Source of the DNA: a virus
Lineage: Duplodnaviria > Caudoviricetes
DNA: 58,009 bases
Strand: one strand, 5' to 3'
IMG/VR virus record: IMGVR_UViG_3300028571_000031
Span: 1 to 58,009 of that record
Every line of letters starts with the position of its first letter. The stretch's first letter is position 1. A program made the position numbers and the translations under genes. Under the pieces are notes generated by a model. The model was not told where the DNA came from. It made no database searches and worked only from the letters and a program-made list of their open reading frames with translations. Shown here in pieces: positions 6,626 through 51,540 of the stretch.

Positions 6626-6654
6626 TTGCACTCCAAAGTAACCAGTGCTATAAG
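6626..6654 (+). promoter_or_regulatory. sigma70-type promoter of the leader and tRNA operon
   Basis: TTGCAC-17 bp-TATAAG with extended -10 TG. Confidence 0.75.
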
Positions 6655-6663
6655 GTGTCCATC

Positions 6664-6759
6664 ATGTTCTTCCTCAGCATCTCCCTCAGCTATAGTTCCT
6701 CGTCAGCGCTCTTGTCGCTGTCGAGCCTATGCTCATGCGGAGAGGTACTTGTCGACTGA
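6664..6759 (+). CDS. attenuator leader peptide MFFLSISLSYSSSSALLSLSSLCSCGEVLVD
   Basis: 31 codons including 11 Ser, 7 Leu, 2 Cys and 1 Tyr; lies between the promoter and the terminator; absent from the ORF track because of its size. Confidence 0.85.
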   Translation: MFFLSISLSYSSSSALLSLSSLCSCGEVLVD

Positions 6760-6802
6760 ACACTAAGGCCACTGTCTTAGGTTTGACAAAGACCCCTCTC
6801 CG
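6738..6802 (+). promoter_or_regulatory. antiterminator structure
   Basis: CGGAGAGG (6738-6745) pairs with CCTCTCCG (6795-6802); TTGTCGA (6749-6755) pairs with TTGACAA (6783-6789); inner hairpin CTAAGGC/GTCTTAG. Confidence 0.8.
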
Positions 6803-6827
6803 GAACCCGGCGAGGGGTTTTTTGTTT
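6788..6827 (+). terminator. intrinsic terminator (attenuator)
   Basis: GACCCCTCtCCGG-AAC-CCGGcGAGGGGTT hairpin followed by a T tract. Confidence 0.9.
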
Positions 6828-6868
6828 CCTGAAAACCGAATAATCAAGAAGATAGCTTGTTAGCTTGT

Positions 6869-6944
6869 GCCGACGTAGACCAATGGTAGAGTCAACTGGT
6901 CGAGGGCCAGTGTAGCGTGGGTTCGACCCCCACCGTCGGTACCA
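6869..6944 (+). tRNA. tRNA-Leu(GAG), short variable region, C33
   Basis: Acceptor GCCGACG/CGTCGGT, anticodon arm ACTGG-TCGAGGG-CCAGT, encoded ACCA end. Confidence 0.8.
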
Positions 6945-6946
6945 AT

Positions 6947-7035
6947 GCCCGGATGGTGGAACAGCTAGACACAGTGCTCTCAAACAGCGCCGCGACGAAA
7001 GAAGCTTGGGGGTTGAAATCCCCCTCTGGGTACCA
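6947..7035 (+). tRNA. tRNA-Leu(CAA)
   Basis: Cloverleaf with loop CTCAAAC, long variable arm, ACCA end. Confidence 0.9.
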
Positions 7036-7055
7036 ATAGCTAGCAAGCGTAATGT

Positions 7056-7180
7056 GCCGGGATGCTGGAACAGGGTGGACGAATCAAGAAGCCTTGACAC
7101 TTCTCAATCAAGGGCTGACAATAGCCGAGGTTGCGAGAAGACTCAACGCAAGCAGGTCAGTGATAAGATCGACCGTATGT
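7056..7180 (+). pseudogene. 5' part of a tRNA-Leu followed by an HTH-coding fragment
   Basis: GCCGGGATGCTGGAACAGG resembles the 5' end of the neighbouring Leu tRNA; the following sequence encodes EALTLLNQGLTIAEVARRLNASRSVI. Confidence 0.55.
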
Positions 7181-7257
7181 GCTGCTGTATCCCAACTGGC
7201 AGAGGAAACTGATTTAGATTCAGTGTAGTGTAGGTTCGAATCCTATTAGCAGCACCA
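7181..7257 (+). tRNA. tRNA-Leu(TAG), short variable region
   Basis: Acceptor GCTGCTG/TAGCAGC, anticodon arm ACTGA-TTTAGAT-TCAGT, ACCA end. Confidence 0.88.
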
Positions 7258-7271
7258 GTTAGATAGATAAT

Positions 7272-7361
7272 GGGAAGAAGGTCACTGTCGGTTTGTGGCG
7301 CCGGTCTGTAAAACCGGATCCCTTCGGGGAATCGTGGGTTCAACTCCCTCTCTTCTCACCA
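7272..7361 (+). tRNA. tRNA-Tyr(GTA)
   Basis: CCGGT-CTGTAAA-ACCGG, long variable arm, ACCA end. Confidence 0.9.
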
Positions 7362-7370
7362 GTTTGAGAT

Positions 7371-7460
7371 GCCCAGATGGCGAAATTTGGTAGACGCACA
7401 ATCTTCAGATGGTTGCGGCCCGTAAGGGCCGTGGGAGTTCGAGTCTCCCTTTGGGCACCA
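7371..7460 (+). tRNA. tRNA-Leu(CAG)
   Basis: CAATC-TTCAGAT-GGTTG, long variable arm, ACCA end. Confidence 0.92.
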
Positions 7461-7468
7461 GAAGCTAC

Positions 7469-7600
7469 GGTTTAGGTTTGAGAGAGCCGAATGTTAGTGG
7501 ATTATCCTGCAAAGATAATTGGTTCGAATCCAAAGCATGACTAGCAATAGTCATGTGGCAAGTGTCGAAAGACAACGGTGCCAACCTCCATAAACTACCA
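7469..7600 (+). ncRNA. atypical tRNA-like RNA with a Cys (GCA) anticodon arm and two extra GNRA hairpins
   Basis: TTATC-CTGCAAA-GATAA arm, TTGG-TTCGAAT-CCAA T-arm, extra hairpins, CCA at 7588-7590 and again at 7598-7600. Confidence 0.65.
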
Positions 7601-7630
7601 CTTGCTCTCTGTTCGTTTATTTTTGGGTAT

Positions 7631-7718
7631 GGATAGTGAAGTTGGGCATGGGCTAACCCCTCACTGGAAACGAGGTGGCACCTTCGGGTGTAGGGATCGA
7701 GACCCTCGCTATCCGCCA
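7631..7718 (+). tRNA. tRNA-Ser(GGA), 8/4 fold
   Basis: 8-bp acceptor GGATAGTG/CGCTATCC, 4-bp T-stem, loop CTGGAAA, GCCA end. Confidence 0.85.
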
Positions 7719-7734
7719 GTTCGTGTTCGTGTAT

Positions 7735-7824
7735 GGAGAGTGATGTTGGAAGTGGTCTGGCCCCGGTCTCGAAAACCGAGGTACGCCGTAAGGTGTAGGA
7801 GTTCGAATCTCCCTCTCTCCTCCA
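7735..7824 (+). tRNA. tRNA-Ser(CGA), probable 8/4 fold
   Basis: Loop CTCGAAA, long variable arm, TCCA end. Confidence 0.85.
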
Positions 7825-7843
7825 GTTCGATGTTCGTTGTTGT

Positions 7844-7935
7844 GGAAGGGTGTCCGAGTGGTTTATGGAACTCGTCTTGAAAACGAGAGTGTGCCTAAAA
7901 AGCCACCGTGGGTTCGAATCCCATCCCTTCCTCCA
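7844..7935 (+). tRNA. tRNA-Ser(TGA)
   Basis: CTCGT-CTTGAAA-ACGAG, long variable arm, TCCA end. Confidence 0.93.
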
Positions 7936-7950
7936 GTCAAGTCAGGGTAT

Positions 7951-8042
7951 GGAAAGACGGTAGAGTTTGGAGCGCTACACAGGTTTGCTAAACCTGCCGA
8001 GCCGAAAGGCCGGAAAGGGTTCGAGTCCCTTTCTTTCCGCCA
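7951..8042 (+). tRNA. tRNA-Ser(GCT)
   Basis: CAGGT-TTGCTAA-ACCTG, long variable arm, GCCA end. Confidence 0.92.
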
Positions 8043-8044
8043 AT

Positions 8045-8091
8045 GAAAAGCCCAGATGTGTTCTAAACGACACATCTGGGCTTTTCTCTTT
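8045..8091 (+). terminator. intrinsic terminator closing the tRNA operon
   Basis: GAAAAGCCCAGATGTGT...ACACATCTGGGCTTTTC followed by TCTTT. Confidence 0.85.
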
Positions 8092-8105
8092 GTGCACTCT
8101 GGAGC

Positions 8106-9395
8106 ATGCCCATCGTCACCGCCTCTCCAAAGAAGTACGACCACATCAGCCTGACGCCTCCAGAAGGAGTCAGGAAGGCCGCGAAGCGGGGTCTTGAACT
8201 TCGTCGTGAGTTCGGTCGCGGCGGAACAGCCGTCGGCGTGGCTCGTGCTCGTGACCTGTCAAACGGCAAGTCCGTCAGCCCAGACACTGCCAAGCGGATG
8301 AAGGCGTACTTCGATCGTCACCAGCCTGACCAGAAGGCTGAAGGCTTCGACTCTGGTGAGAAGGGCTACCCCAGCGCCGGTCGTGTAGCTTGGCTGCTCT
8401 GGGGGGGCGACGCGGGCTACTCTTGGGCCAAGAAGGTCGTGCTGCAGATGGAAGCTGCCGACAAGAAAGTGAGTGGGTCAGCTGAGAAGCCATCAGCTGG
8501 AGAGTTCGCTCGCTTTGCAGGTGCTGGTGAGTGCACCGAAGTAGCGGAAGTCATAGAGAAAAGTAAGTTGGGGCGTAAGTATGGTCTGAAAAGGGTCGAC
8601 GGTGGCTACCTCTTCGGTAGCCGTTGGGGCGAACATTCTTGGGTCGAGAGCCCTGACGGTACCATTGTAGATGCAACTCATGGTCAGTTTGACCCTGCTG
8701 TACCAGTACTCGTTGCAGAGGTCGGTAGTTTGGAGCACTCCCGCTATCTGGCAGCTGAAGACATGACGCAGGACCAGCTGACAGACGTTTACGAGAGGAA
8801 GCCATCAATGGCTCATGTCGTACTGGCTCTGCACATGGCAGCTGACGCACTTGCAGGTGACACCAGTGAAGTCGATGCTTCACTAGCAACCGCGCTGGGG
8901 CTCGCGGTCGGTCTTGGACTTGGTGGTCAGACACCAACGACGCCGAGCTACAGCAACGAGACAACGATGGAGTGGACGGCAGACAGCTTGGAGCCAGAGC
9001 TTCAGCCGATTGCGTACCTTGAGTCCAAGAACAACCATGGGCTCGCGCACAAGACCCATTCGAAGGGCGAGTGGAACACAGCCTATGGCGCCCTCGGCAT
9101 GAAGCCGTCATCTGGCTATGATCAATACCAGAAGTCACCCTCGCTGAAGTCTGACTACCCCGGACTGGACGAGGAGTCTTTCGAGTCTCTCTTCCGAGAG
9201 GACACAGACTTCTACAACGCCGTGGCGAACGACCACTGGTTGGGGCTGATCAGCAAGCTCGGCACCCCAGAGAGAGCCGCATTCGCGTGGCGCTTTGGCC
9301 GTGGCGCAGCCTTGAACGCAACTGACGAAGAGATCAAAGCTGCTCCATACGTGAAGGCGTACATGCGCTTGCTTGGTGAGAGTTCTTCGTCGTAG
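8106..9395 (+). CDS. multidomain virion-type protein: conserved phage domain, transglutaminase/papain-like domain and SLT-like muramidase
   Basis: RVAWLLWGGDAG N-domain; C...HSWVE...IVDAT triad pattern; IAYLES...AYGALGM...AW..G.G...YV SLT pattern. Confidence 0.6.
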   Translation: MPIVTASPKKYDHISLTPPEGVRKAAKRGLELRREFGRGGTAVGVARARDLSNGKSVSPDTAKRMKAYFDRHQPDQKAEGFDSGEKGYPSAGRVAWLLWGGDAGYSWAKKVVLQMEAADKKVSGSAEKPSAGEFARFAGAGECTEVAEVIEKSKLGRKYGLKRVDGGYLFGSRWGEHSWVESPDGTIVDATHGQFDPAVPVLVAEVGSLEHSRYLAAEDMTQDQLTDVYERKPSMAHVVLALHMAADALAGDTSEVDASLATALGLAVGLGLGGQTPTTPSYSNETTMEWTADSLEPELQPIAYLESKNNHGLAHKTHSKGEWNTAYGALGMKPSSGYDQYQKSPSLKSDYPGLDEESFESLFREDTDFYNAVANDHWLGLISKLGTPERAAFAWRFGRGAALNATDEEIKAAPYVKAYMRLLGESSSS

Positions 9396-9412: not shown

Positions 9413-12400
9413 ATGACCATCAAAGTGCTTTCTGCCAAGTACATGAGCAACCAGTGCTCCGTCTGCCCGTCCTGCAAAGACGAGTTGGAGGAGTCTGGTC
9501 TGTCTCTGAACAACAAGAAGGACATTGGCATCGTGTACACATGCCCATGTGGCAAGTCGAAGGTCTGGACCAATAGAGCCAGAAACGATGCTAGACTTCT
9601 GTTCTTCCTTGAGAAGAAGCCACACCCAGTGTATGGCATGTCACCATACACTATTGGTTTCTGTAATGACATGCATGATGGTTTCAAGTTTGATGACATC
9701 ACCATACTCAAAGGTGGCGTCGAAGGAACAGTCGACGAGACTGGTGAGAACCCTGCAGACCTGATCGGCAACGACCACGTTCAGATTCTACACTGGCGGG
9801 GAAAAGAGCTTCAGGTAGGTCAAGAAGACCAGATTCTCGAAATCTATCGCCGCCGACTCCCAGAGCTAAAAGCTCTGGTTGAGGGATTCTCCAGCAAGAC
9901 GACTGCAAGCTCAGACAGCTTCAGATACTGGAACAACTGCACGAGTACCGATGATGAACTGGTAGACTGGATCAGGGGGAGAGCCACGAACATTGGTGGT
10001 CCCAAAGCAGATGAGATCGACTTCGACGAGTTCACTGCCCAAGTAGACCCTTCTGAACTCCAGCACGAGGACATCGATACGGACTGGCACGTCCACTTCT
10101 TTGAGTCCACTCTGCCATCTGGCGAACCGATTGTGTACTACACGCACAGCGGTATCGAGTGGTTCTTCGCTATGGGCCACGTGGACCAAGACAAGGAGCT
10201 TGCCATTATCAGCAAGCTGAATGATGAGAAGTATGGAGTCAGTGCTTCAGCCTCTTCCGAATTCAACTCGTGGTTCCGAAACTCCAAGGTCGTGAAGGCC
10301 GATGGGAGCCCCGCTGTTGTCTACCACGGCACCAACAGCGCCTTCTCCGAGTTCGATGCTGAGAAGGGCTCTGGCTTCTTCGGGACTGGGGTCTACGTCA
10401 CTGAGGACCAGAACGAAGCTGAGAAGTACGGGGAACACCTGCTTGAGCTTTACGCTCGGGCAGAGAATCCCATTGACCTCCGTGGAGATAACAAGGACTT
10501 CGACCGCGAGCTAGCGAAGATCGGGATCGAAGCTCCTTACGAGAAGCTCAGGACTGCGAAGGAGTTCCGAGACCGCGCAGTGAAGCTCCGAGCCGACCTC
10601 ATGGCCAAGGGCTACGACAGCGCCAGAATCACGACGTCTGATGGTGCTGACGGATGGGTGCTGTACTCGGCAGACCAAGTCAAACTCGTCACCAACACGC
10701 ACCCAACCGAGTCGACAAAGATTGGAGCTTCTCAAGACAAAGCCGGTGAAGGACGCTGGTCAAACCGCCAAGTCACCGATGTCTGGTATCACGGTGGCTC
10801 AAAAGAAGACGCTGCCTCTGCCAAGAAGCTCGGTCACTTCCCTGAAGAGTACACACCCCTTCGTGCCAACTGGGGGTCAGGCGTTTACCTGACCGCAGAC
10901 AAGAAGGAAGCCAAGAAGTTCGGCGACTCCGTTGTCGAAGTTGAACTGTCTTCAAGTCTGAAGATGCTTGACATTCGTGACAAGAACTACAGGGCCATGC
11001 CCAGCACGATCTCAGAACACCTGAAGAGTGAGGAAGCCGTTTCCCTCTTTGAGAAGCACTGGCCTCATGACCTTGGAACAGGCGTCAAGGCGGCGCTCAT
11101 TGCCGACGGATACGACGGTATTGTTTGGAAAGGTGATGAATGGCACGACTGGGCAGTCGTGTTCAATCCAACTCAAGCCAAAATACGACAGAGCAAGACA
11201 GTCAAAGCAGGATGGGAAGAAGGCGGTCATCACCTTCTTGTCGCATTCACGACGCCCCCAACTGATGAAGTCTTCGCTGCTCTGGACCAGACAGACAAGG
11301 TGCGTGAGAAGCTATATGCACACCGGGACCTGCCGAAGGTACCGCGCGGTGTTCGCCTCGACCTCCCATCGATGGCAAAAGGCATTGCTGTTGTCACAGT
11401 CCATGCCGGACCTTCAGGCGGCACCGTCATTGGTTATGACCACAGTGCTGTAATCAAAGACGTCAGGTTTGTCGTTCAAGCAGGTGCTCAAAAAGCAATC
11501 GGCGCTGAGGGCTCCAACAAGTTTCCGATGTCATTCATCGCTGGAGTACTACAAGATGTACCTGCTGAGCCAAAAGGAACTCCGGTCTATTACGACCCAC
11601 GCAAAGTTCACCTGTACGTAGATGCAACGAATATGCGCCCAGTACGCACAGCACATCTGGTCAATATGATTGGCAAGCAGGTGTATGCGACAGGACTTGA
11701 GTACTACACGGCTGACAACGTCCCACCAGCGCCAGACGGTATGAGCAGTGCTGTTCTTATGCCGACTGTGGAGACGGAAGCAGTCAGCGCCATGGCCTCG
11801 CCATACGATAAGGGATGGACTGACTTGCCACCCGGCAATGTGCCGGTTCCAACTCCGCTGAAAGACAAACCGACGCTGTGGGCAAAGGTCGCTGACCGAC
11901 TTGGTCATGAAGTCGACAAAGGGCTGCAGCAGCGAGCCCCCGTCATCGGTGGTCGTCGTCGGCACAACAGGCCCATGACGTCTTGGCTCATGAGTGACGG
12001 TCGAGTCCTCTCGTTCACAACAGAGAAGCTCGAAGCAAAGACTTGGAACAACCTCAAAGGGAAAACACACCCAGCACTTCCTCATGTCTATGACGTGTTC
12101 TCCATTGGAGGAGACGGCGAAGAGCCCATGTGGGCAATCGTCCATGAGCAGCTGATCTGGCCTGTGCCTCCCGAATGGGAATCCTTCGTCGACAACTTCT
12201 TCCGTTGGCGAGCACTGGAGAAGAACGCACTCCATCCAGCAACACCACAGGACCTAGAAGACTTCCTCCGCTTCGTGATTGACCCAGAGGTCACCGACGC
12301 AAAGACAGTGAAGAAGAAGCAAGTCGAGAATGCTCTCCCATGGGGCATGGCGAAATCACGTCGAGTGGACTTCACTGATCGTCGTAAGGAAGTCTTCAAG

Positions 12401-12664: not shown

Positions 12665-12670
12665 GTGACG

Positions 12671-13360
12671 ATGTCGAACCATCGAGATAACCTGCTTGAA
12701 GCAGCGCAGCTTCTCACAGCCGTTGCCTACGGCCTTGATGATGAAGACACCACAGACAGCCTTCTCGCAATTGCACATAAGATCCGGGGCAATACACTCA
12801 TGGGGTCACTTCCAGACCGATCGGTCATGTTTGGCCTCAACCGGTTGCTGTCAGACCTCGGATCCAAGTGGGCAGTGATCGGAGGCATGGCCGTTGCTGT
12901 TCATGGGCATGAACGAGAGACGTCTGACATTGACGTTCTGATCGACGCCCTGCCGGATGCCACAAAGACCATCGACTCGGCCTATATGGACCGGTTCGGC
13001 TTCTATCGAGGCAAGAGCCGAACCGGAGGACACTTGGTTCTGGACCACAAGCAGGGTCAATGCGAGTTCCTCCCCGCCAAGGAGGAATGGCAGATGTGGG
13101 CCATTGAGAACGCCACACCAGAGATGGTGCTGGGCTTGTCCGTTCCGGTCATTCGACCAGAAGCTGTCATTGTCTCAAAGCTGAAGGCCACCACTCAGAA
13201 CCCTCTTCGTGAGAAGAAGGATATCCCTGACGTCCTCAGTGTCCTTCTTAACCACAAGGACACCCTCGATTACGGGGTAATCCTGATGTGGCTGACGCCG
13301 CAGGAAGCTGCGAAGTTCTCGAAGCTCGCTGACGCGAACTCCATTTCCATTCCTGAGTGA
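12671..13360 (+). CDS. Pol-beta superfamily nucleotidyltransferase (AbiEii-related type)
   Basis: VIGGMAVAVHGHERETSDIDVLI motif and R.KKDIPD; N-terminal LLEAAQLLTA tag. Confidence 0.8.
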   Translation: MSNHRDNLLEAAQLLTAVAYGLDDEDTTDSLLAIAHKIRGNTLMGSLPDRSVMFGLNRLLSDLGSKWAVIGGMAVAVHGHERETSDIDVLIDALPDATKTIDSAYMDRFGFYRGKSRTGGHLVLDHKQGQCEFLPAKEEWQMWAIENATPEMVLGLSVPVIRPEAVIVSKLKATTQNPLREKKDIPDVLSVLLNHKDTLDYGVILMWLTPQEAAKFSKLADANSISIPE

Positions 13361-13366
13361 TTCAGT

Positions 13367-13443
13367 TGGTGCGCCGACAGGGACTCGAACCCTGATAGTT
13401 CCACGTGATTAAGGTGGGTGCCTAACCTTTCGGCCATCGGCGC
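13367..13443 (-). tRNA. tRNA-like gene with a 9-nt anticodon loop (identity undetermined)
   Basis: Acceptor GCGCCGA/TCGGCGC, T-arm CAGGG-TTCGAGT-CCCTG, ACCA end; CCAC-CTTAATCAC-GTGG. Confidence 0.75.
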
Positions 13444-15085: not shown

Positions 15086-15943
15086 ATGAAGAGCCGAGCA
15101 TCCGTTCTAGAGGTCAAGCCAGAGGACCTGCTGCACCAGCACATTGCTGACGCACTGGGTTGGACCATCAAAGATGTGCACTCGTACTCCCTAGCGACTC
15201 TTCGTGATCTGGTCCGACCGGTTGATAAGGCGCTCTCAGAAGAGATCACCAAGGTCATCCGTGAAGGAGGTCACATCCGATCGAGCCTGAGGTCCGCAGC
15301 TAGCCTACTGGAAAGCCTTGCCGACAGTAAACCGATGCTTGACAAAGCAGGCCAGAGCGGTAGGCTCCAGCCAATGGCAACCAAGAAGACCGCTACCAAG
15401 ATCAGAGCCAACGCTCCTGTCTCCATGGCTGAAGTCAAGAGCGTCATTGATGACGTCATGGCGAAGCTGAAGGAAGAAGGAACGAAGGGAGCGCTCTGCG
15501 GTGGCTTTGCGATGCAGGCTTACGGCAGCACCCGCCTGACGTCTGATGTCGACATCATCGTTTCGTCTCACCCTTCCTTCGTGACGGACGGATCGCCGAT
15601 GGCGATCGGTGGTGTGTCGACCGAGATTGACTCGGTCCCCATCGACTTCATCGAGCGAGCCGACCACTACCGCGACTTGTACGACGAGGCCCTTCGTACC
15701 GCGAAGGCCATGATCCCCGGCAACAGCGCGCCTGTCATTCGACCGGAAGTGATGGTCGCCCTCAAGATGGTGGCTGGTCGCCCCAAGGATGACCACGACC
15801 TCTACTTCCTGCTGTCCAGTGTCAAGATGGACAACACCTACCTGAACAAGGTAGTAACCAAGTACCTTGGCCGCTACGCGCTGACCGACCTCGACAACAC
15901 GCGCAGCATGGCGAAGTTCCTCAAAGACAACAACAAGCTCTGA
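15086..15943 (+). CDS. second Pol-beta superfamily nucleotidyltransferase
   Basis: LCGGFAMQAYGSTRLTSDVDIIV and ALKMVAGRPKDDHDL motifs. Confidence 0.8.
   Translation: MKSRASVLEVKPEDLLHQHIADALGWTIKDVHSYSLATLRDLVRPVDKALSEEITKVIREGGHIRSSLRSAASLLESLADSKPMLDKAGQSGRLQPMATKKTATKIRANAPVSMAEVKSVIDDVMAKLKEEGTKGALCGGFAMQAYGSTRLTSDVDIIVSSHPSFVTDGSPMAIGGVSTEIDSVPIDFIERADHYRDLYDEALRTAKAMIPGNSAPVIRPEVMVALKMVAGRPKDDHDLYFLLSSVKMDNTYLNKVVTKYLGRYALTDLDNTRSMAKFLKDNNKL
15339..15366 (+). promoter_or_regulatory. internal sigma70-type promoter
   Basis: TTGACA-16 bp-TAGGCT; in-frame ATG at 15374. Confidence 0.45.
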
Positions 15944-49797: not shown

Positions 49798-51540
49798 ATG
49801 AGCCGTATCACCATCCCAAGCTTCCTCTCGTCTGGCGAGATCGCCTCAGTGCAAACGACGTTTGCCCAGAAGAGGCTTGAAGCTCGTGCCGACGCACTGG
49901 CAGACCGGCTGTCAACGAGGGCGGTTCCCATCGCTGTTCGGTCTGCGATGGAAGAAGCAGCAAAGCTGTTGGCCGCTGACCACCTCGTGTCTCCAAAAGT
50001 TGAAGAGGCGAAGCCCATTGTTCTGACGATCAAGATCCCAAAGAATCTGGCGTCACGTTATCCACCTGACGACGAGCGGCATAACGAGGAACCACACATT
50101 ACCCTGCTCTACCTCACTGGTGATGGATTCACACCCGGTAAGGTAGACGAGTTCCTTCTTGGCCTACGTGCAGCACTGAAGCGTCAAGCTCCCTTCCGCG
50201 TCACCCTGCAAACGCACAAGGGACTTCAGGACTTTGGTGACAGCGAGTCAGGTACAAAGGCGCTCTGGTTCTCCGTCAAGGACGACCCCAACGGCCAGTT
50301 GACCATGCTGCATAACTTCCTGAAGCGGGAACTTTCAGTTCTCGGTTTCGACTGCAAGCAGACATTCAACTACAACCCGCACAGCACTTGGTGTTACGTA
50401 CCCAACGACCAGTCCGAGAAGGACCGTCAGCGCATGTCCTCTCTCGCTGTGGGCAGGTTCACGGACGTGAACACGTGGTTCGATGTCAGGCACGTCAGCG
50501 TGTCTCTTCCTTCCGGCAAGGAAGTCACGATCCCACTCTCTCCCAATCTCAGGCCCGACAAGCGTGGTCCGGTTTCAATGCCAGCGCACGCCTCGTTCAA
50601 GTCGGCTTCCGTCGTCACGGCCATCACAAAGATGTCTGGCGACCAGCTTGCGATCATCCGCATGATCCGCAAAGCACCCAACGGCACCATGACCGTCAGG
50701 GAGATCGAGAAGTCACGAGTAGGCAGCACTCCTTGGTTCAAGCTATGGATGCAGACCAAGCAGCCCAAGAAAGACGTTGTGGTGTCCGAGGACGACATCT
50801 CAAGCTCTGATGTCGTTGTGCCTGACAACAAGCCGAGGCATCTGCTTGAAGGTCTCCTGAGCGCAGCCGAGACTGCCAAGCTCCCATGGACGGACAAAGA
50901 CAGCATCCTGCCAAACAACAAAGTGTTTGGACTTGTTGTACCAGAAGCAGACGTCAACCGTCTATTTTCTGCATGGGGAGAGAGCGCTGTTGGGTTCATT
51001 AAACAGTACAATGGAAAGGCTGAGATGTCCGGTCATCCAGTTGTTCCGGGCAAGATCATCCTCTCTTGGGTGCGCTATTCCGAGTTGGACGACAACACGT
51101 TGTGGGTGCATGAAGTACAGACGGACATGTTCTGGGCAGTTGGCTCACGACATATTCGTCAGCCAGATGTACAGCACGCAATGTCTCTTGGTGGTCCAAT
51201 GTCCAAGGAGACGAACTACTACATCCGCGACGTCATCAAGGAACGCGCGAATGAGGACGACAAGCAGCTTTCGATGCTGGAGTTCGAGGTTCTGCGCGAG
51301 TTCGTATCCGAGCACAGCAGCAGCCGTATCGTGTTCCCAACGGTACAGTACCGACTTGACGAGTACCCAGCTGACATCTTTGGAGACAAGGCCGCACCAG
51401 CTTCTGTCTACAATGACATCCCTCGAAAGCTCCGCTTCGAGAAGACCAATGTGGAAAGCCTCAACTTGTCCGAAGCTCCTCCTGACGGAGAAGTCTGGGT
51501 GTCTGCTTCAGTAAAGGCCGTCGGGGCTAGGATTGCCTGA
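49798..51540 (+). CDS. 2H phosphoesterase (Acb1/LigT-like) fused to a polyvalent-type domain
   Basis: PHITL and PHSTW motifs; second domain SWVR...LWVHEVQTD. Confidence 0.75.
   Translation: MSRITIPSFLSSGEIASVQTTFAQKRLEARADALADRLSTRAVPIAVRSAMEEAAKLLAADHLVSPKVEEAKPIVLTIKIPKNLASRYPPDDERHNEEPHITLLYLTGDGFTPGKVDEFLLGLRAALKRQAPFRVTLQTHKGLQDFGDSESGTKALWFSVKDDPNGQLTMLHNFLKRELSVLGFDCKQTFNYNPHSTWCYVPNDQSEKDRQRMSSLAVGRFTDVNTWFDVRHVSVSLPSGKEVTIPLSPNLRPDKRGPVSMPAHASFKSASVVTAITKMSGDQLAIIRMIRKAPNGTMTVREIEKSRVGSTPWFKLWMQTKQPKKDVVVSEDDISSSDVVVPDNKPRHLLEGLLSAAETAKLPWTDKDSILPNNKVFGLVVPEADVNRLFSAWGESAVGFIKQYNGKAEMSGHPVVPGKIILSWVRYSELDDNTLWVHEVQTDMFWAVGSRHIRQPDVQHAMSLGGPMSKETNYYIRDVIKERANEDDKQLSMLEFEVLREFVSEHSSSRIVFPTVQYRLDEYPADIFGDKAAPASVYNDIPRKLRFEKTNVESLNLSEAPPDGEVWVSASVKAVGARIA

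What the first reader, a model, noticed from the sequence alone, without database searches (positions are those of the whole stretch)
7469..7600. Unusual tRNA-like RNA with a Cys anticodon arm, two extra GNRA hairpins and two nested CCA ends
Seen: anticodon arm with GCA (7509-7511) directly followed by a TTCGAAT T-arm. Then come hairpins CATGACTA-GCAA-TAGTCATG and GGCA..TGTC-GAAA-GACA..TGCC. GGTT (7475-7478) pairs with AACC before UCCA (7590), and GGTTTA (7469-7474) can pair with TAAACT before ACCA (7600). There is no canonical D-arm. Established: U73 and the GCA anticodon are CysRS identity elements, and T4 has non-tRNA stable RNAs within its tRNA cluster. Inference: this is a tRNA mimic, decoy or novel tRNA architecture. 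The two TGC codons in the leader suggest a real link to Cys decoding.
Basis: partly seen in the sequence, partly recalled or inferred. Interest (0 to 1): 0.72.

Follow-up and report, generated by a model that had tools for sequence, protein, structure and literature searches.

The report
Orphan tRNA-derived RNA in phage operon
A roughly 130-base folded RNA gene sits between the tRNA genes of a lake phage; it is built partly from tRNA pieces but lacks what a working tRNA needs, so it is more likely a tRNA look-alike or relic than a new cysteine tRNA.

Summary
The element lies in a one-strand array of Leu, Tyr and Ser tRNA genes in a 58-kb fragment of a freshwater phage.

It is not a recognisable tRNA:
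- Rfam gave no match there, even at E<=10.
- ARAGORN gave nothing in bacterial mode.

The "Cys anticodon arm next to the T-arm" is better read as a class-II variable arm plus T-arm. I examined 119 natural tRNAs that carry CTGCAAA this close to a T-loop. In none of them is it the anticodon loop (87 of the first 94 are Ser or Leu).

The two "CCA-ended" helices are not beyond chance. A helix of that kind appears in 385 of 2000 shuffles.

These features are non-random:
- the exact T-loop;
- an 8-bp hairpin that starts directly after the T-stem (25 of 2000 shuffles reach 8 bp);
- GNRA loops on both extra hairpins;
- the overall fold (z = -3.8).

I found no homologue anywhere I could search. A 98%-identical relative has another tRNA at the junction.

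Best reading: a tRNA-derived, non-decoding structured RNA that is co-transcribed with the tRNAs, comparable in setting to T4 RNAC and RNAD. A decaying relic is nearly as likely. A Leu/Ser/Tyr/Cys-rich leader peptide with a terminator upstream keeps a weak Cys link alive.

The parts
7469..7478 (+). 5' strand of the two stacked terminal helices (GGTTTA + GGTT). It is itself a tandem repeat, GGTTTA/GGTTTG.
   Evidence: Read. It pairs with 7583-7586 and 7591-7596. The helices reach p about 0.5-0.7 in the ensemble of the 132- and 116-nt pieces. Not beyond chance.
7481..7487 (+). AGAGAGC, the 5' strand of the alternative 7-bp closing helix with 7604-7610.
   Evidence: p 0.8-1.0 when the 3' flank is included. 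Chance level: 138 of 500 shuffles.
7487..7500 (+). D-arm-like stretch: a 3-bp CCG/TGG stem with an 8-nt loop. It lacks the usual paired G18-G19 in the loop.
   Evidence: ARAGORN mitochondrial mode drawing. A tRNA-Ser profile did not find it.
7501..7519 (+). Hairpin ATTATC-CTGCAAA-GATAAT.
   Evidence: Census. A tRNA-Ser covariance model aligns 7503-7534 to model positions 45-77, 15.4 bits. nhmmer profile hit, 12.8 bits.
7519..7533 (+). T-arm: a 3-4 bp stem (T)TGG/CCA(A) with the canonical loop TTCGAAT.
   Evidence: (D4).
7535..7556 (+). Hairpin H2: 8 Watson-Crick pairs plus one G-U pair, GCAA loop. Its 5' strand begins where an acceptor 3' strand would begin, right after the T-stem.
   Evidence: p about 1.0 in every fold. 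25 of 2000 shuffles reach 8 bp. Single copy in the window.
7557..7582 (+). Hairpin H3: GGCA/TGCC stem, internal loop, TGTC/GACA stem, GAAA loop. Its 3' strand runs straight into AACC of the inner terminal helix.
   Evidence: p 0.75-1.0 in every fold.
7583..7600 (+). 3' strands of the terminal helices with the two CCA triplets: AACC-TCCA-TAAACT-ACCA.
   Evidence: A relative's contig begins to match the window at 7605. Just before that point it carries another tRNA's ...GGTACCA followed by GA.
7604..7610 (+). GCTCTCT, the 3' strand of the alternative closing helix. It lies in spacer sequence that the relative shares.

Best explanation
The element is a tRNA-derived RNA module that does not decode.

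What it is made of:
- It keeps the variable-arm-plus-T-arm block of a class-II (Ser/Leu-type) tRNA.
- It has no anticodon arm in the proper place and no canonical D-arm.
- It carries two added GNRA-capped hairpins.
- The first added hairpin (H2) starts directly after the T-stem. It can therefore stack on the T-stem as an acceptor stem would, but it is closed by a loop.
- The real ends of the RNA probably lie in a terminal helix followed by an encoded ACCA.

How it most likely works (inferred, not shown): it is transcribed with the ten tRNAs as one precursor, from the leader/terminator at about 6660-6822 to the terminator at 8045-8086. The tRNA-processing enzymes free it as they free its neighbours. 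It would then persist as a compact RNA of about 130 nt, the same situation as RNAC and RNAD in the T4 tRNA region.

What such an RNA does is open. The form suggests a look-alike of the upper half of a tRNA that could occupy a tRNA-binding factor.
For: Setting:
- Same strand and spacing as nine to ten tRNA genes, all of which end in an encoded CCA.
- Bounded by terminator-like hairpins.

Structure:
- z = -3.78, 0 of 200 shuffles.
- H2 and H3 have p about 1 in all five folded pieces.
- H2-size hairpins occur in 25 of 2000 shuffles.
- Both loops are GNRA.
- Exact T-loop.

tRNA ancestry of 7503-7534:
- Census of 161 pattern matches: 94 overlap a called tRNA (65 Ser, 22 Leu, 7 other, 0 Cys).
- 25 further tRNAs, 0 with the motif as anticodon loop.
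- tRNA-Ser model hit, E = 0.0013.

Not a working tRNA:
- No Rfam match between 7461 and 7733 at E<=10.
- No ARAGORN call at thresholds down to 70%.

The 3' boundary behaves like a tRNA slot: in a relative, another tRNA's CCA lies 2 nt before the point where the match to the window begins, at 7605.

Precedent: T4 rnaC and rnaD are annotated in its tRNA region. RNAC holds the same GGUUCGAAUCC T-arm. Their roles are unknown (passages read in PMC3014915, and PMC9697503).
Against: - No homologue was found, so no covariation test was possible.
- No RNA data exist for it.
- Both candidate closing helices are at chance level, so the ends are not established.
- GC content is 43%, against 54.5% for the window and 45-62% for the tRNAs. 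This fits relaxed selection or foreign origin.
- The same array holds another non-tRNA gap with a truncated copy of a Leu tRNA 5' end (D10), so debris does accumulate here.
- The close relative does not have the element directly upstream of 7605.
- The tRNA-Ser model was built mostly from sequences picked by the very motif in question, so its hit is not independent.
Confidence: 0.45

Rival explanations
1. Evolutionary debris: a chimeric pseudo-tRNA left by cassette recombination and deletion in a fast-changing tRNA array. It is transcribed but discarded as spacer. The hairpins at most slow nucleases.
For: - Not detected as a tRNA.
- Low GC content.
- No homologue in any search.
- Gap 7036-7180 holds a truncated Leu-CAA 5' copy, 89% over 19 nt.
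- The relative with 98% identity downstream is not collinear over 6845-7604.
- The CTCTCT of the alternative helix is spacer shared with that relative.
Against: - Two extra hairpins are both perfect and both GNRA-capped.
- H2 is placed exactly at the T-stem.
- The overall fold is far below the shuffles.
- The same sequence at 7564-7714 is present without change in a run from another study and year (run X6, record 15), though this may be the same phage population.
Confidence: 0.3
2. A working but aberrant Cys adaptor. After loss of the original anticodon arm, the variable-arm hairpin (loop C-U-GCA-A-A, 6-bp stem) serves as the anticodon arm. The RNA is charged by CysRS and reads UGC/UGU.
For: - The loop has U33 and A37-A38, as tRNA-Cys loops do.
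- The upstream leader peptide MFFLSISLSYSSSSALLSLSSLCSCGEVLVD has 18 of 22 codons (4-25) for Leu, Ser or Tyr, the amino acids of the array, plus two TGC codons. P for the Leu/Ser/Tyr run is 3.7e-10. P for 2 or more Cys is 0.029.
- The window has no other tRNA-Cys.
- Phage arrays do hold irregular Ser-type tRNAs (abstract and passages of PMC5389517).
Against: - The spacing between anticodon loop and T-loop is 7 nt, against 12 or more in real tRNAs.
- There is no variable loop and no D-arm with G18-G19.
- About 50 nt of hairpins lie between the T-arm and any acceptor 3' strand.
- The outer discriminator is A, not U.
- Neither Rfam nor ARAGORN detects a tRNA.
- Phe and Val also occur twice in the leader, so a match to some repeated leader residue is not rare.
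- The TGC codons lie just before the proposed antiterminator strand and partly inside a small hairpin.
Confidence: 0.08
3. A circularly permuted or two-piece tRNA. H2 would be the acceptor stem, to be opened in its loop by RNase P; H3 would be the D-arm; the terminal helix would hold the two pieces together.
For: - The T-stem runs straight into the 7-nt 5' strand of H2, with U7542 at the discriminator place.
- The five helices follow the cyclic order of a class-II cloverleaf.
Against: - 3780 in-silico permuted constructs gave no ARAGORN tRNA at the default or 85% threshold. Only low-grade calls (Asn-GTT, 4-base 'anticodons') appeared at 70%.
- H2 is a closed 9-bp hairpin with a tetraloop, a poor RNase P substrate (inference).
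- No CCA follows U7542, although every tRNA of the array encodes CCA.
- Linkers of 0 and 22 nt stand where tRNAs have 2 and 1-2 nt.
Confidence: 0.04
4. A signal at the DNA or transcription level: an internal promoter, a palindromic protein-binding site (H2 as DNA), or a pause or processing site.
For: - Promoter-like TTGAGA-16-GATTAT at 7478-7505, 9 of 12 matches.
- H2 is an 8+8 palindrome.
Against: - 2 promoter-like sites were found in 2.3 kb, against 0.8 expected.
- The palindrome has no second copy in 58 kb with up to 3 mismatches.
- This does not explain the T-arm block or the GNRA loops.
Confidence: 0.05

Closest known systems
T4 RNAC and RNAD (species 1 and 2 stable RNAs in the T4 tRNA region)
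   Same: - Non-tRNA RNAs of 119-139 nt lying among phage tRNA genes on the same strand.
- RNAC folds strongly (z = -4.6) and holds the same GGUUCGAAUCC T-arm.
- Function unknown (passages read).
   Different: - There is no sequence likeness. A blastn search of the element against 50,697 phage records at E<=10 gave only 22-27-nt chance matches, none in T4.
- In RNAC the T-arm lies directly before the 3' terminal strand. Here a capped hairpin follows it.
- RNAD does not fold beyond shuffles.
Class-II tRNA-Ser and tRNA-Leu (variable arm plus T-arm)
   Same: A hairpin with ...CUGCAAA(G)... directly before GGUUCGAAUCC, as in 87 of 94 tRNAs of the census. One example is the tRNA-Ser at L315 7965-8049.
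   Different: - There is no anticodon arm upstream and no recognised acceptor or D-arm.
- The loop has 7 nt and the stem 6 A-U-rich pairs, instead of a 6-nt loop closed by C-G.
Allo-tRNAs and (8/4) tRNA-Ser of bacteria and phages (Mukai et al. 2017, PMC5389517; abstract and passages read)
   Same: - Irregular Ser-type tRNAs, some with non-Ser anticodons.
- Some appear inactive in translation and are proposed to be regulatory RNAs.
- They are found in phage tRNA clusters.
- The window's own Ser-CGA looks 8/4.
   Different: Allo-tRNAs keep a full cloverleaf with a 12-bp acceptor branch that has open ends. This element does not. The supplementary figures on five-stem junctions could not be seen.
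Herpesvirus MHV68 tRNA-like RNAs followed by hairpins (TMERs); recalled, no call
   Same: A viral tRNA-like unit followed by one or two stable hairpins in one small transcript.
   Different: That is a eukaryotic Pol III and microRNA setting. There is no relation by sequence, and it was not tested here.
60-nt tRNA lacking an anticodon arm, L153 3083-3142(-), contig binned with an Anaeroplasmataceae MAG
   Same: - It shares TCCTGCAAAGATAA(T)TGGTTCGAATCCA with the element (27 of 28).
- It has the same layout: D-like loop TA-TGG, then this hairpin, then the T-arm.
- Rfam tRNA model 30.9 bits, with 15 anticodon-arm positions replaced by 3 nt.
   Different: - Its acceptor 3' strand follows the T-arm directly, and it has no extra hairpins.
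- nhmmer E = 0.41 in a pre-selected set, so kinship is not shown.

Membership tests
Canonical tRNA (tRNA-Cys) | Cloverleaf recognised by covariance model or tRNA finder | tested here: not met
   There is no Rfam tRNA-clan match in 7461-7733 at E<=10. ARAGORN gave none at the default threshold, with introns, or at 80% and 70% thresholds. The only call is a mitochondrial-mode 'mtRNA-Cys' at 7478-7548 with a poor acceptor.
Canonical tRNA (tRNA-Cys) | Anticodon loop separated from the T-loop by a stem strand, a variable loop and a T-stem strand (about 12-14 nt) | tested here: not met
   The separation here is 7 nt. In 119 tRNAs with CTGCAAA 5-9 nt before a T-loop, the motif is never the anticodon loop.
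Canonical tRNA (tRNA-Cys) | T-stem continuous with a 7-bp acceptor stem that has free ends, a discriminator and CCA | tested here: not met
   The T-stem is followed by the capped hairpin H2. Helices with NCCA lie 50 nt or more further on and are at chance level.
Canonical tRNA (tRNA-Cys) | U73 discriminator (CysRS identity; recalled) | tested here: inconclusive
   The outer end has A7597. The inner 4-bp helix has U7587. Under the permuted reading it would be U7542.
Canonical tRNA (tRNA-Cys) | Aminoacylation and decoding | not testable with these tools
   No RNA holder was listed among the sequencing runs found.
Class-II tRNA-derived sequence | Variable-arm hairpin directly before a canonical T-arm | tested here: met
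   The model used was biased by the way its sequences were chosen.
Class-II tRNA-derived sequence | Ser-type acceptor (GGAGAG / CUCUCC) and D-arm | tested here: inconclusive
   By eye, GAGAGAG-CCGAA resembles GGAGAGnnGCCGA, and GCTCTCT lies downstream. Neither the covariance model nor the profile aligned this part.
T4 RNAC/RNAD-type stable RNA | Non-tRNA gene inside a phage tRNA array, same strand | tested here: met
T4 RNAC/RNAD-type stable RNA | Sequence or structure homology to rnaC or rnaD | tested here: not met
   No T4-group hit at E<=10. The helix layout differs.
T4 RNAC/RNAD-type stable RNA | Accumulates as a discrete stable RNA | not testable with these tools
   No RNA data.
Allo-tRNA / (8/4, 9/3) tRNA | 12-bp acceptor branch (8/4 or 9/3) with free ends, long D-stem with a tetraloop, long variable arm after a real anticodon arm | tested here: not met
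   T-stem (4 bp) plus H2 (8 bp) would give 12 bp, but H2 is capped. There is no long D-stem and no anticodon arm before the variable arm.
tmRNA / YrlA / other Rfam tRNA-like families | Match to the family model | tested here: not met
   ARAGORN found no tmRNA. No Rfam family matched at E<=10.

The most novel reading that the evidence does not exclude
The element is a live product of tRNA remodelling. A Ser-type tRNA lost its anticodon arm, and its variable-arm hairpin, whose conserved loop happens to read C-U-GCA-A-A, was taken over as a Cys-reading arm. The RNA, or a two-piece form of it, supplies or senses Cys decoding. The whole array, including this RNA, would be switched on by a leader-peptide attenuator that samples exactly the codons served by the array: Leu, Ser, Tyr and two UGC.
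Probability: 0.08. Interest if true: 0.85.

Novelty: new variant of a known kind. Interest (0 to 1): 0.35.

Why it matters
Phage tRNA arrays are now seen as tools against host tRNA-cleaving defences and for codon supply. The non-tRNA RNAs inside them have stayed unexplained for fifty years, T4 RNAC and RNAD among them.

This element is a second, unrelated example of such an RNA. Its parts can be traced: a class-II variable-arm and T-arm block fused to GNRA hairpins.

If it is stable and bound by a tRNA-handling factor, it would give a handle on what such RNAs do. If it is debris, it documents how quickly these arrays are rebuilt.

The practical lesson for annotation is that CUGCAAA next to a T-loop marks a variable arm, not a Cys anticodon.

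Tried and rejected
Searches for homologues, all empty for the element:
- blastn of 6800-8100 against the phage records: 41 records, each covering 7% of the query or less, all over neighbouring tRNAs.
- blastn of 7461-7612 at E<=10: 62 records, matches of 22-27 nt only. One that I inspected lies inside a protein gene on the other strand.
- IMG/VR pattern scans (the window's own record may be left out of these scans):
  - CTGCAAA-N5-9-GGTTCGAATCC: 41 stretches.
  - The 18-mer across the T-arm: 5 stretches, none alike.
  - The H2 20-mer: 0 stretches.
  - A 24-mer of the neighbouring Ser-GGA gene, meant to catch relatives: 0 stretches.
I examined 107 new loci. Four nhmmer hits at E about 0.15-0.19 (L288, L295, L260, L321) lie in a protein-coding frame.
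- Neighbour-gene routes:
  - The RecA-like protein found no relative in IMG/VR.
  - The 429-aa neighbour gave 80 loci that share only its N-terminal domain, and none holds the element.
  - The RecA-like protein has relatives at 97-35% identity in the big protein collection, but their contigs could not be reached.
  - A scan with its alignment gave 5 IMG/VR loci (best 40% identity), 4 metagenome contigs (three under 2.1 kb) and nothing in genome contigs. None holds a tRNA.
- BLAST of the element against 5 whole virus records: no match.

Other negative or unavailable results:
- Sequencing runs: no RNA holder was listed. The parts of the stretch without cover in runs X3, X6 and X9 say nothing.
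- Permuted-tRNA reading: tested on 3780 in-silico constructs and rejected.
- attP-like copy of a host tRNA 3' end: rejected by reading, because no acceptor 3' strand or CCA follows the T-arm.
- 15-nt repeat 6777-6791 / 7472-7486 (13 of 15) and the 12-nt complement 7587-7598 / 7858-7869: judged to be chance, given 13 such inverted pairs in 1.7 kb.
- Literature: searches brought up no paper on an RNA of this layout or on a leader-peptide attenuator before a tRNA operon. I saw listings only, except for the papers named above.
- The supplements of PMC5389517 are closed and may show related five-stem Ser-type RNAs.
Full report
SETTING

The window is a whole IMG/VR virus record of 58,009 bases, estimated to be 31% complete, and the element occurs in it once. 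Near-identical DNA is held by lake and freshwater metagenome runs, and no RNA run was listed.

The genes around it belong to a replication and nucleotide-metabolism block of a large phage:
- a sigma-like protein, an SSB-like protein and a RecA-like protein;
- an ART-PolyVal polyvalent protein and nucleotidyltransferase-like proteins;
- primase, ThyX and ribonucleotide reductase;
- a 2H-phosphoesterase-family protein.

No isolate phage is close. The best tblastn identity of the RecA-like protein among the 25 best-ranked records listed is 31.5%.

THE tRNA ARRAY

Between 6869 and 8042 the plus strand carries a tRNA array:

| Gene | Coordinates |
|---|---|
| Leu-GAG | 6869-6944 |
| Leu-CAA | 6947-7035 |
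| Non-tRNA gap | 7036-7180 |
| Leu-TAG | 7181-7257 |
| Tyr | 7272-7361 |
| Leu-CAG | 7371-7460 |
| The element | 7469-7600 |
| Ser-GGA | 7631-7718 |
| Ser-CGA | 7735-7824 |
| Ser-TGA | 7844-7935 |
| Ser-GCT | 7951-8042 |

All ten end in an encoded CCA. A terminator-like hairpin stands before the array at 6788-6822 and a strong one after it at 8045-8086.

THE OBSERVATION

The 132 nt fold at -39.9 kcal/mol, and none of 200 shuffles folds as well (z = -3.78). Hairpins H2 (7535-7556, GCAA loop) and H3 (7557-7582, GAAA loop) form with probability near 1 in each of the five pieces I folded.

The rest is ambiguous.
- In the 132-nt piece, the minimum-energy fold pairs 7484-7490 with 7519-7525 instead of forming the 'anticodon' and T hairpins.

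Controls on dinucleotide shuffles of the 170-nt gap:

| Feature | Shuffles showing it |
|---|---|
| 6-bp helix ending at an NCCA | 385 of 2000 |
| Long-range 7-bp Watson-Crick helix | 138 of 500 |
| 8-bp Watson-Crick hairpin | 25 of 2000 |

So the 'two nested CCA ends' carry no statistical weight, and the ends of the RNA are not settled. H2, the GNRA loops on both added hairpins and the exact T-loop are not accidents.

IS IT A tRNA?

No.
- Rfam gives no match of any of its 4227 families between 7461 and 7733, even at E<=10 in a 1.6-kb search.
- ARAGORN finds nothing in bacterial mode at the default threshold, with introns allowed, or at 80% and 70% thresholds.
- At 80% it does recover the odd Ser-GGA next door.
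- Only the mitochondrial mode draws a 'Cys' cloverleaf at 7478-7548, with a mismatched acceptor and a 3-bp T-stem.

THE KEY REINTERPRETATION

I scanned two public collections for CTGCAAA followed within 5-9 nt by GGTTCGAATCC.
- These are 65 Ser, 22 Leu, 7 others and no Cys.
- The 67 without a call are tmRNA 3' ends, coding sequence and a few oddities.
- A looser T-loop pattern added 25 more tRNAs from 107 loci. In all of them the motif is the variable arm, or the 3' strand of the anticodon stem plus the variable loop. This includes two 84-nt phage tRNA-Cys whose true anticodon loop lies upstream.

In tRNA-Ser the variable arm reads stem-C-UGCAAA-G-stem and abuts the T-arm.

A covariance model of 35 tRNA-Ser aligns 7503-7534 to its variable-arm and T-arm positions (15.4 bits, E = 0.0013). 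A sequence profile does the same. Because 30 of those 35 sequences were chosen through the motif, this shows consistency and is not independent proof.

Neither model aligned the 5' part. My impression that GAGAGAG-CCGAA resembles a Ser acceptor and D-stem is therefore only a reading. The element's hairpin also differs from standard variable arms: it has a 7-nt loop and six A-U-rich pairs.

ANATOMY BEYOND THE tRNA BLOCK

- The T-stem is followed, after at most one base, by the 5' strand of H2. H2 thus occupies the place of an acceptor stem. With the 4-bp T-stem it could form a 12-bp stack, but it is closed by a tetraloop.
- H3 follows H2 without a linker. Its 3' strand runs directly into AACC of the inner terminal helix.
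- As a five- or six-way junction, the RNA has the cyclic order of a class-II cloverleaf opened at the anticodon arm. I tested that idea on 3780 in-silico permuted constructs. ARAGORN found no tRNA at the default or 85% threshold, so I do not hold it.

RELATIVES

I found no homologue by any route. The details are in Tried and rejected.

Laying contigs of four runs on the region gave one useful fact.
- In run X3, a contig matches 7605-8197 with 9 differences and 1 gap.
- Upstream of 7605 that contig carries another sequence, ending in a tRNA T-arm, an acceptor strand and ACCA, followed by GA.
- A second contig of that run leaves the window's sequence after 6844.
- So in a close relative the stretch 6845-7604 is not collinear. 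The break lies a few bases after the element's ACCA, just as it lies 2 bases after a real tRNA's CCA in the relative.
- This supports treating the element as one cassette of the array with its 3' end near 7600. It also shows that CTCTCT (7605-7610) is shared spacer, which speaks against the alternative helix as an evolved feature.
- Whether the relative has the element elsewhere is unknown.
- Run X6, from another study and year, holds 7564-7714 unchanged.

THE CYS LINK

- An ORF at 6664-6759 has an AAGGTG Shine-Dalgarno-like motif 6 nt upstream. It encodes MFFLSISLSYSSSSALLSLSSLCSCGEVLVD.
- Codons 4-25 are Leu, Ser or Tyr in 18 of 22 places. Given 19.1% Leu+Ser+Tyr in 13,604 codons of 30 window ORFs, P = 3.7e-10.
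- Every tRNA of the array has a cognate codon in the leader. TTA, for which there is no tRNA, is absent from the leader and nearly absent from the phage (4 uses).
- CGGAGAGG at the end of the ORF can pair with CCTCTCCG, the 5' arm of the terminator. When the terminator's 3' arm is left out, the fold forms this antiterminator.

This looks like a classical attenuator placed before a tRNA operon. The listings showed no such case in print.

The two TGC codons (6730 and 6736) are the only link between the element and Cys. Two or more Cys in 31 residues has P = 0.029. However, Phe and Val also occur twice, and the TGC codons lie directly before the antiterminator strand, where a stalled ribosome would mask it (inference). 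I take this as a modest reason to keep the Cys-adaptor reading alive at about 8%.

COMPARISON WITH KNOWN RNAs

The nearest analogue by setting is T4.
- Its record annotates rnaC (139 nt) and rnaD (119 nt) next to tRNA-Arg.
- RNAC folds with z = -4.6 and holds CCGGG-UUCGAAU-CCCGG just before its 3' end.
- Their functions are unknown (passages).
- There is no sequence relation, and the helix layout differs.

Irregular Ser-type tRNAs (8/4 tRNA-Ser and allo-tRNAs, some of them apparently not used in translation) are known from phage clusters (PMC5389517, abstract and passages). The window's Ser-CGA fits the 8/4 pattern by eye and scores 42 bits on the tRNA-Sec model. The element fails their defining features.

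VERDICT

What is there is an orphan, strongly folded RNA module, partly tRNA-derived, in a tRNA slot of a fast-changing phage array.

| Reading | Weight |
|---|---|
| Non-decoding tRNA-like RNA that is freed from the operon transcript and may be stable | 45% |
| Mere debris | 30% |
| Aberrant Cys adaptor | 8% |
| DNA-level signal | 5% |
| Permuted or two-piece tRNA | 4% |
| Something not considered | the rest |

Without homologues or RNA data the function cannot be tested here.

Noticed in passing
window 6640-6830: Leader ORF at 6664-6759 (31 aa). In 18 of 22 codons (4-25) it uses Leu, Ser or Tyr, plus two Cys. An intrinsic terminator follows at 6788-6822, and an antiterminator pairing is possible (CGGAGAGG about 6738-6745 with CCTCTCCG 6795-6802). 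This looks like leader-peptide attenuation placed before a tRNA operon whose tRNAs read just those codons.
   Followed up: partly
window 7036-7180: A second non-tRNA gap in the array. 7055-7073 is 89% identical to the 5' end of Leu-CAA (6946-6964) and is followed by unrelated sequence. No tRNA is called on the plus strand. A weak minus-strand 'Glu' appears only at relaxed thresholds.
   Followed up: partly
window 7631-7718 and 7735-7824: tRNA-Ser-GGA has a T-loop ATCGAGA instead of TTCGAAT. Default ARAGORN and the Rfam tRNA model both miss it. tRNA-Ser-CGA scores better on the tRNA-Sec model (42 bits) and reads as an 8-bp acceptor with a 4-bp T-stem, like the (8/4) tRNA-Ser reported from phages.
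   Followed up: partly
window 6869-6944 and 7181-7257: Leu-GAG and Leu-TAG are 76-77 nt long and have no long variable arm, although bacterial Leu tRNAs are class II. The array otherwise holds only amino acids whose bacterial tRNAs are class II.
   Followed up: no
window 13367-13443 (-): A lone tRNA-Ile with anticodon AAT on the minus strand, between an AbiEii-like nucleotidyltransferase ORF (12665-13360) and small ORFs.
   Followed up: no
window 49798-51540: A 580-aa protein with a 2'-5' RNA ligase / 2H phosphoesterase domain. Together with the nucleotidyltransferase-like ORFs at 12665-13360 and 15086-15943, it may point to RNA-end chemistry in this phage.
   Followed up: no
window 6845-7604, compared with run X3: A relative that is 98% identical over 7605-8197 is not collinear with the window over the first two thirds of the array. 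This fits cassette-wise turnover of tRNA genes.
   Followed up: partly
L153 3083-3142 (-): A 60-nt tRNA without an anticodon arm (Rfam tRNA 30.9 bits) on a 12.7-kb contig binned with an Anaeroplasmataceae MAG. The contig also carries two tRNAs with 2-base 'anticodons'. This tRNA shares 27 of 28 bases with the element's hairpin and T-arm.
   Followed up: partly
L261 3787-3870 and L325 6892-6975: Two IMG/VR phages encode 84-nt tRNA-Cys genes with a long variable arm, that is, class-II-like Cys tRNAs.
   Followed up: no
L127 about 11400-11560: A 222-kb IMG/VR phage has repeated tRNA-like units with long inserts before a TTGGTTCGAATCCAA T-arm. They were not examined further.
   Followed up: no
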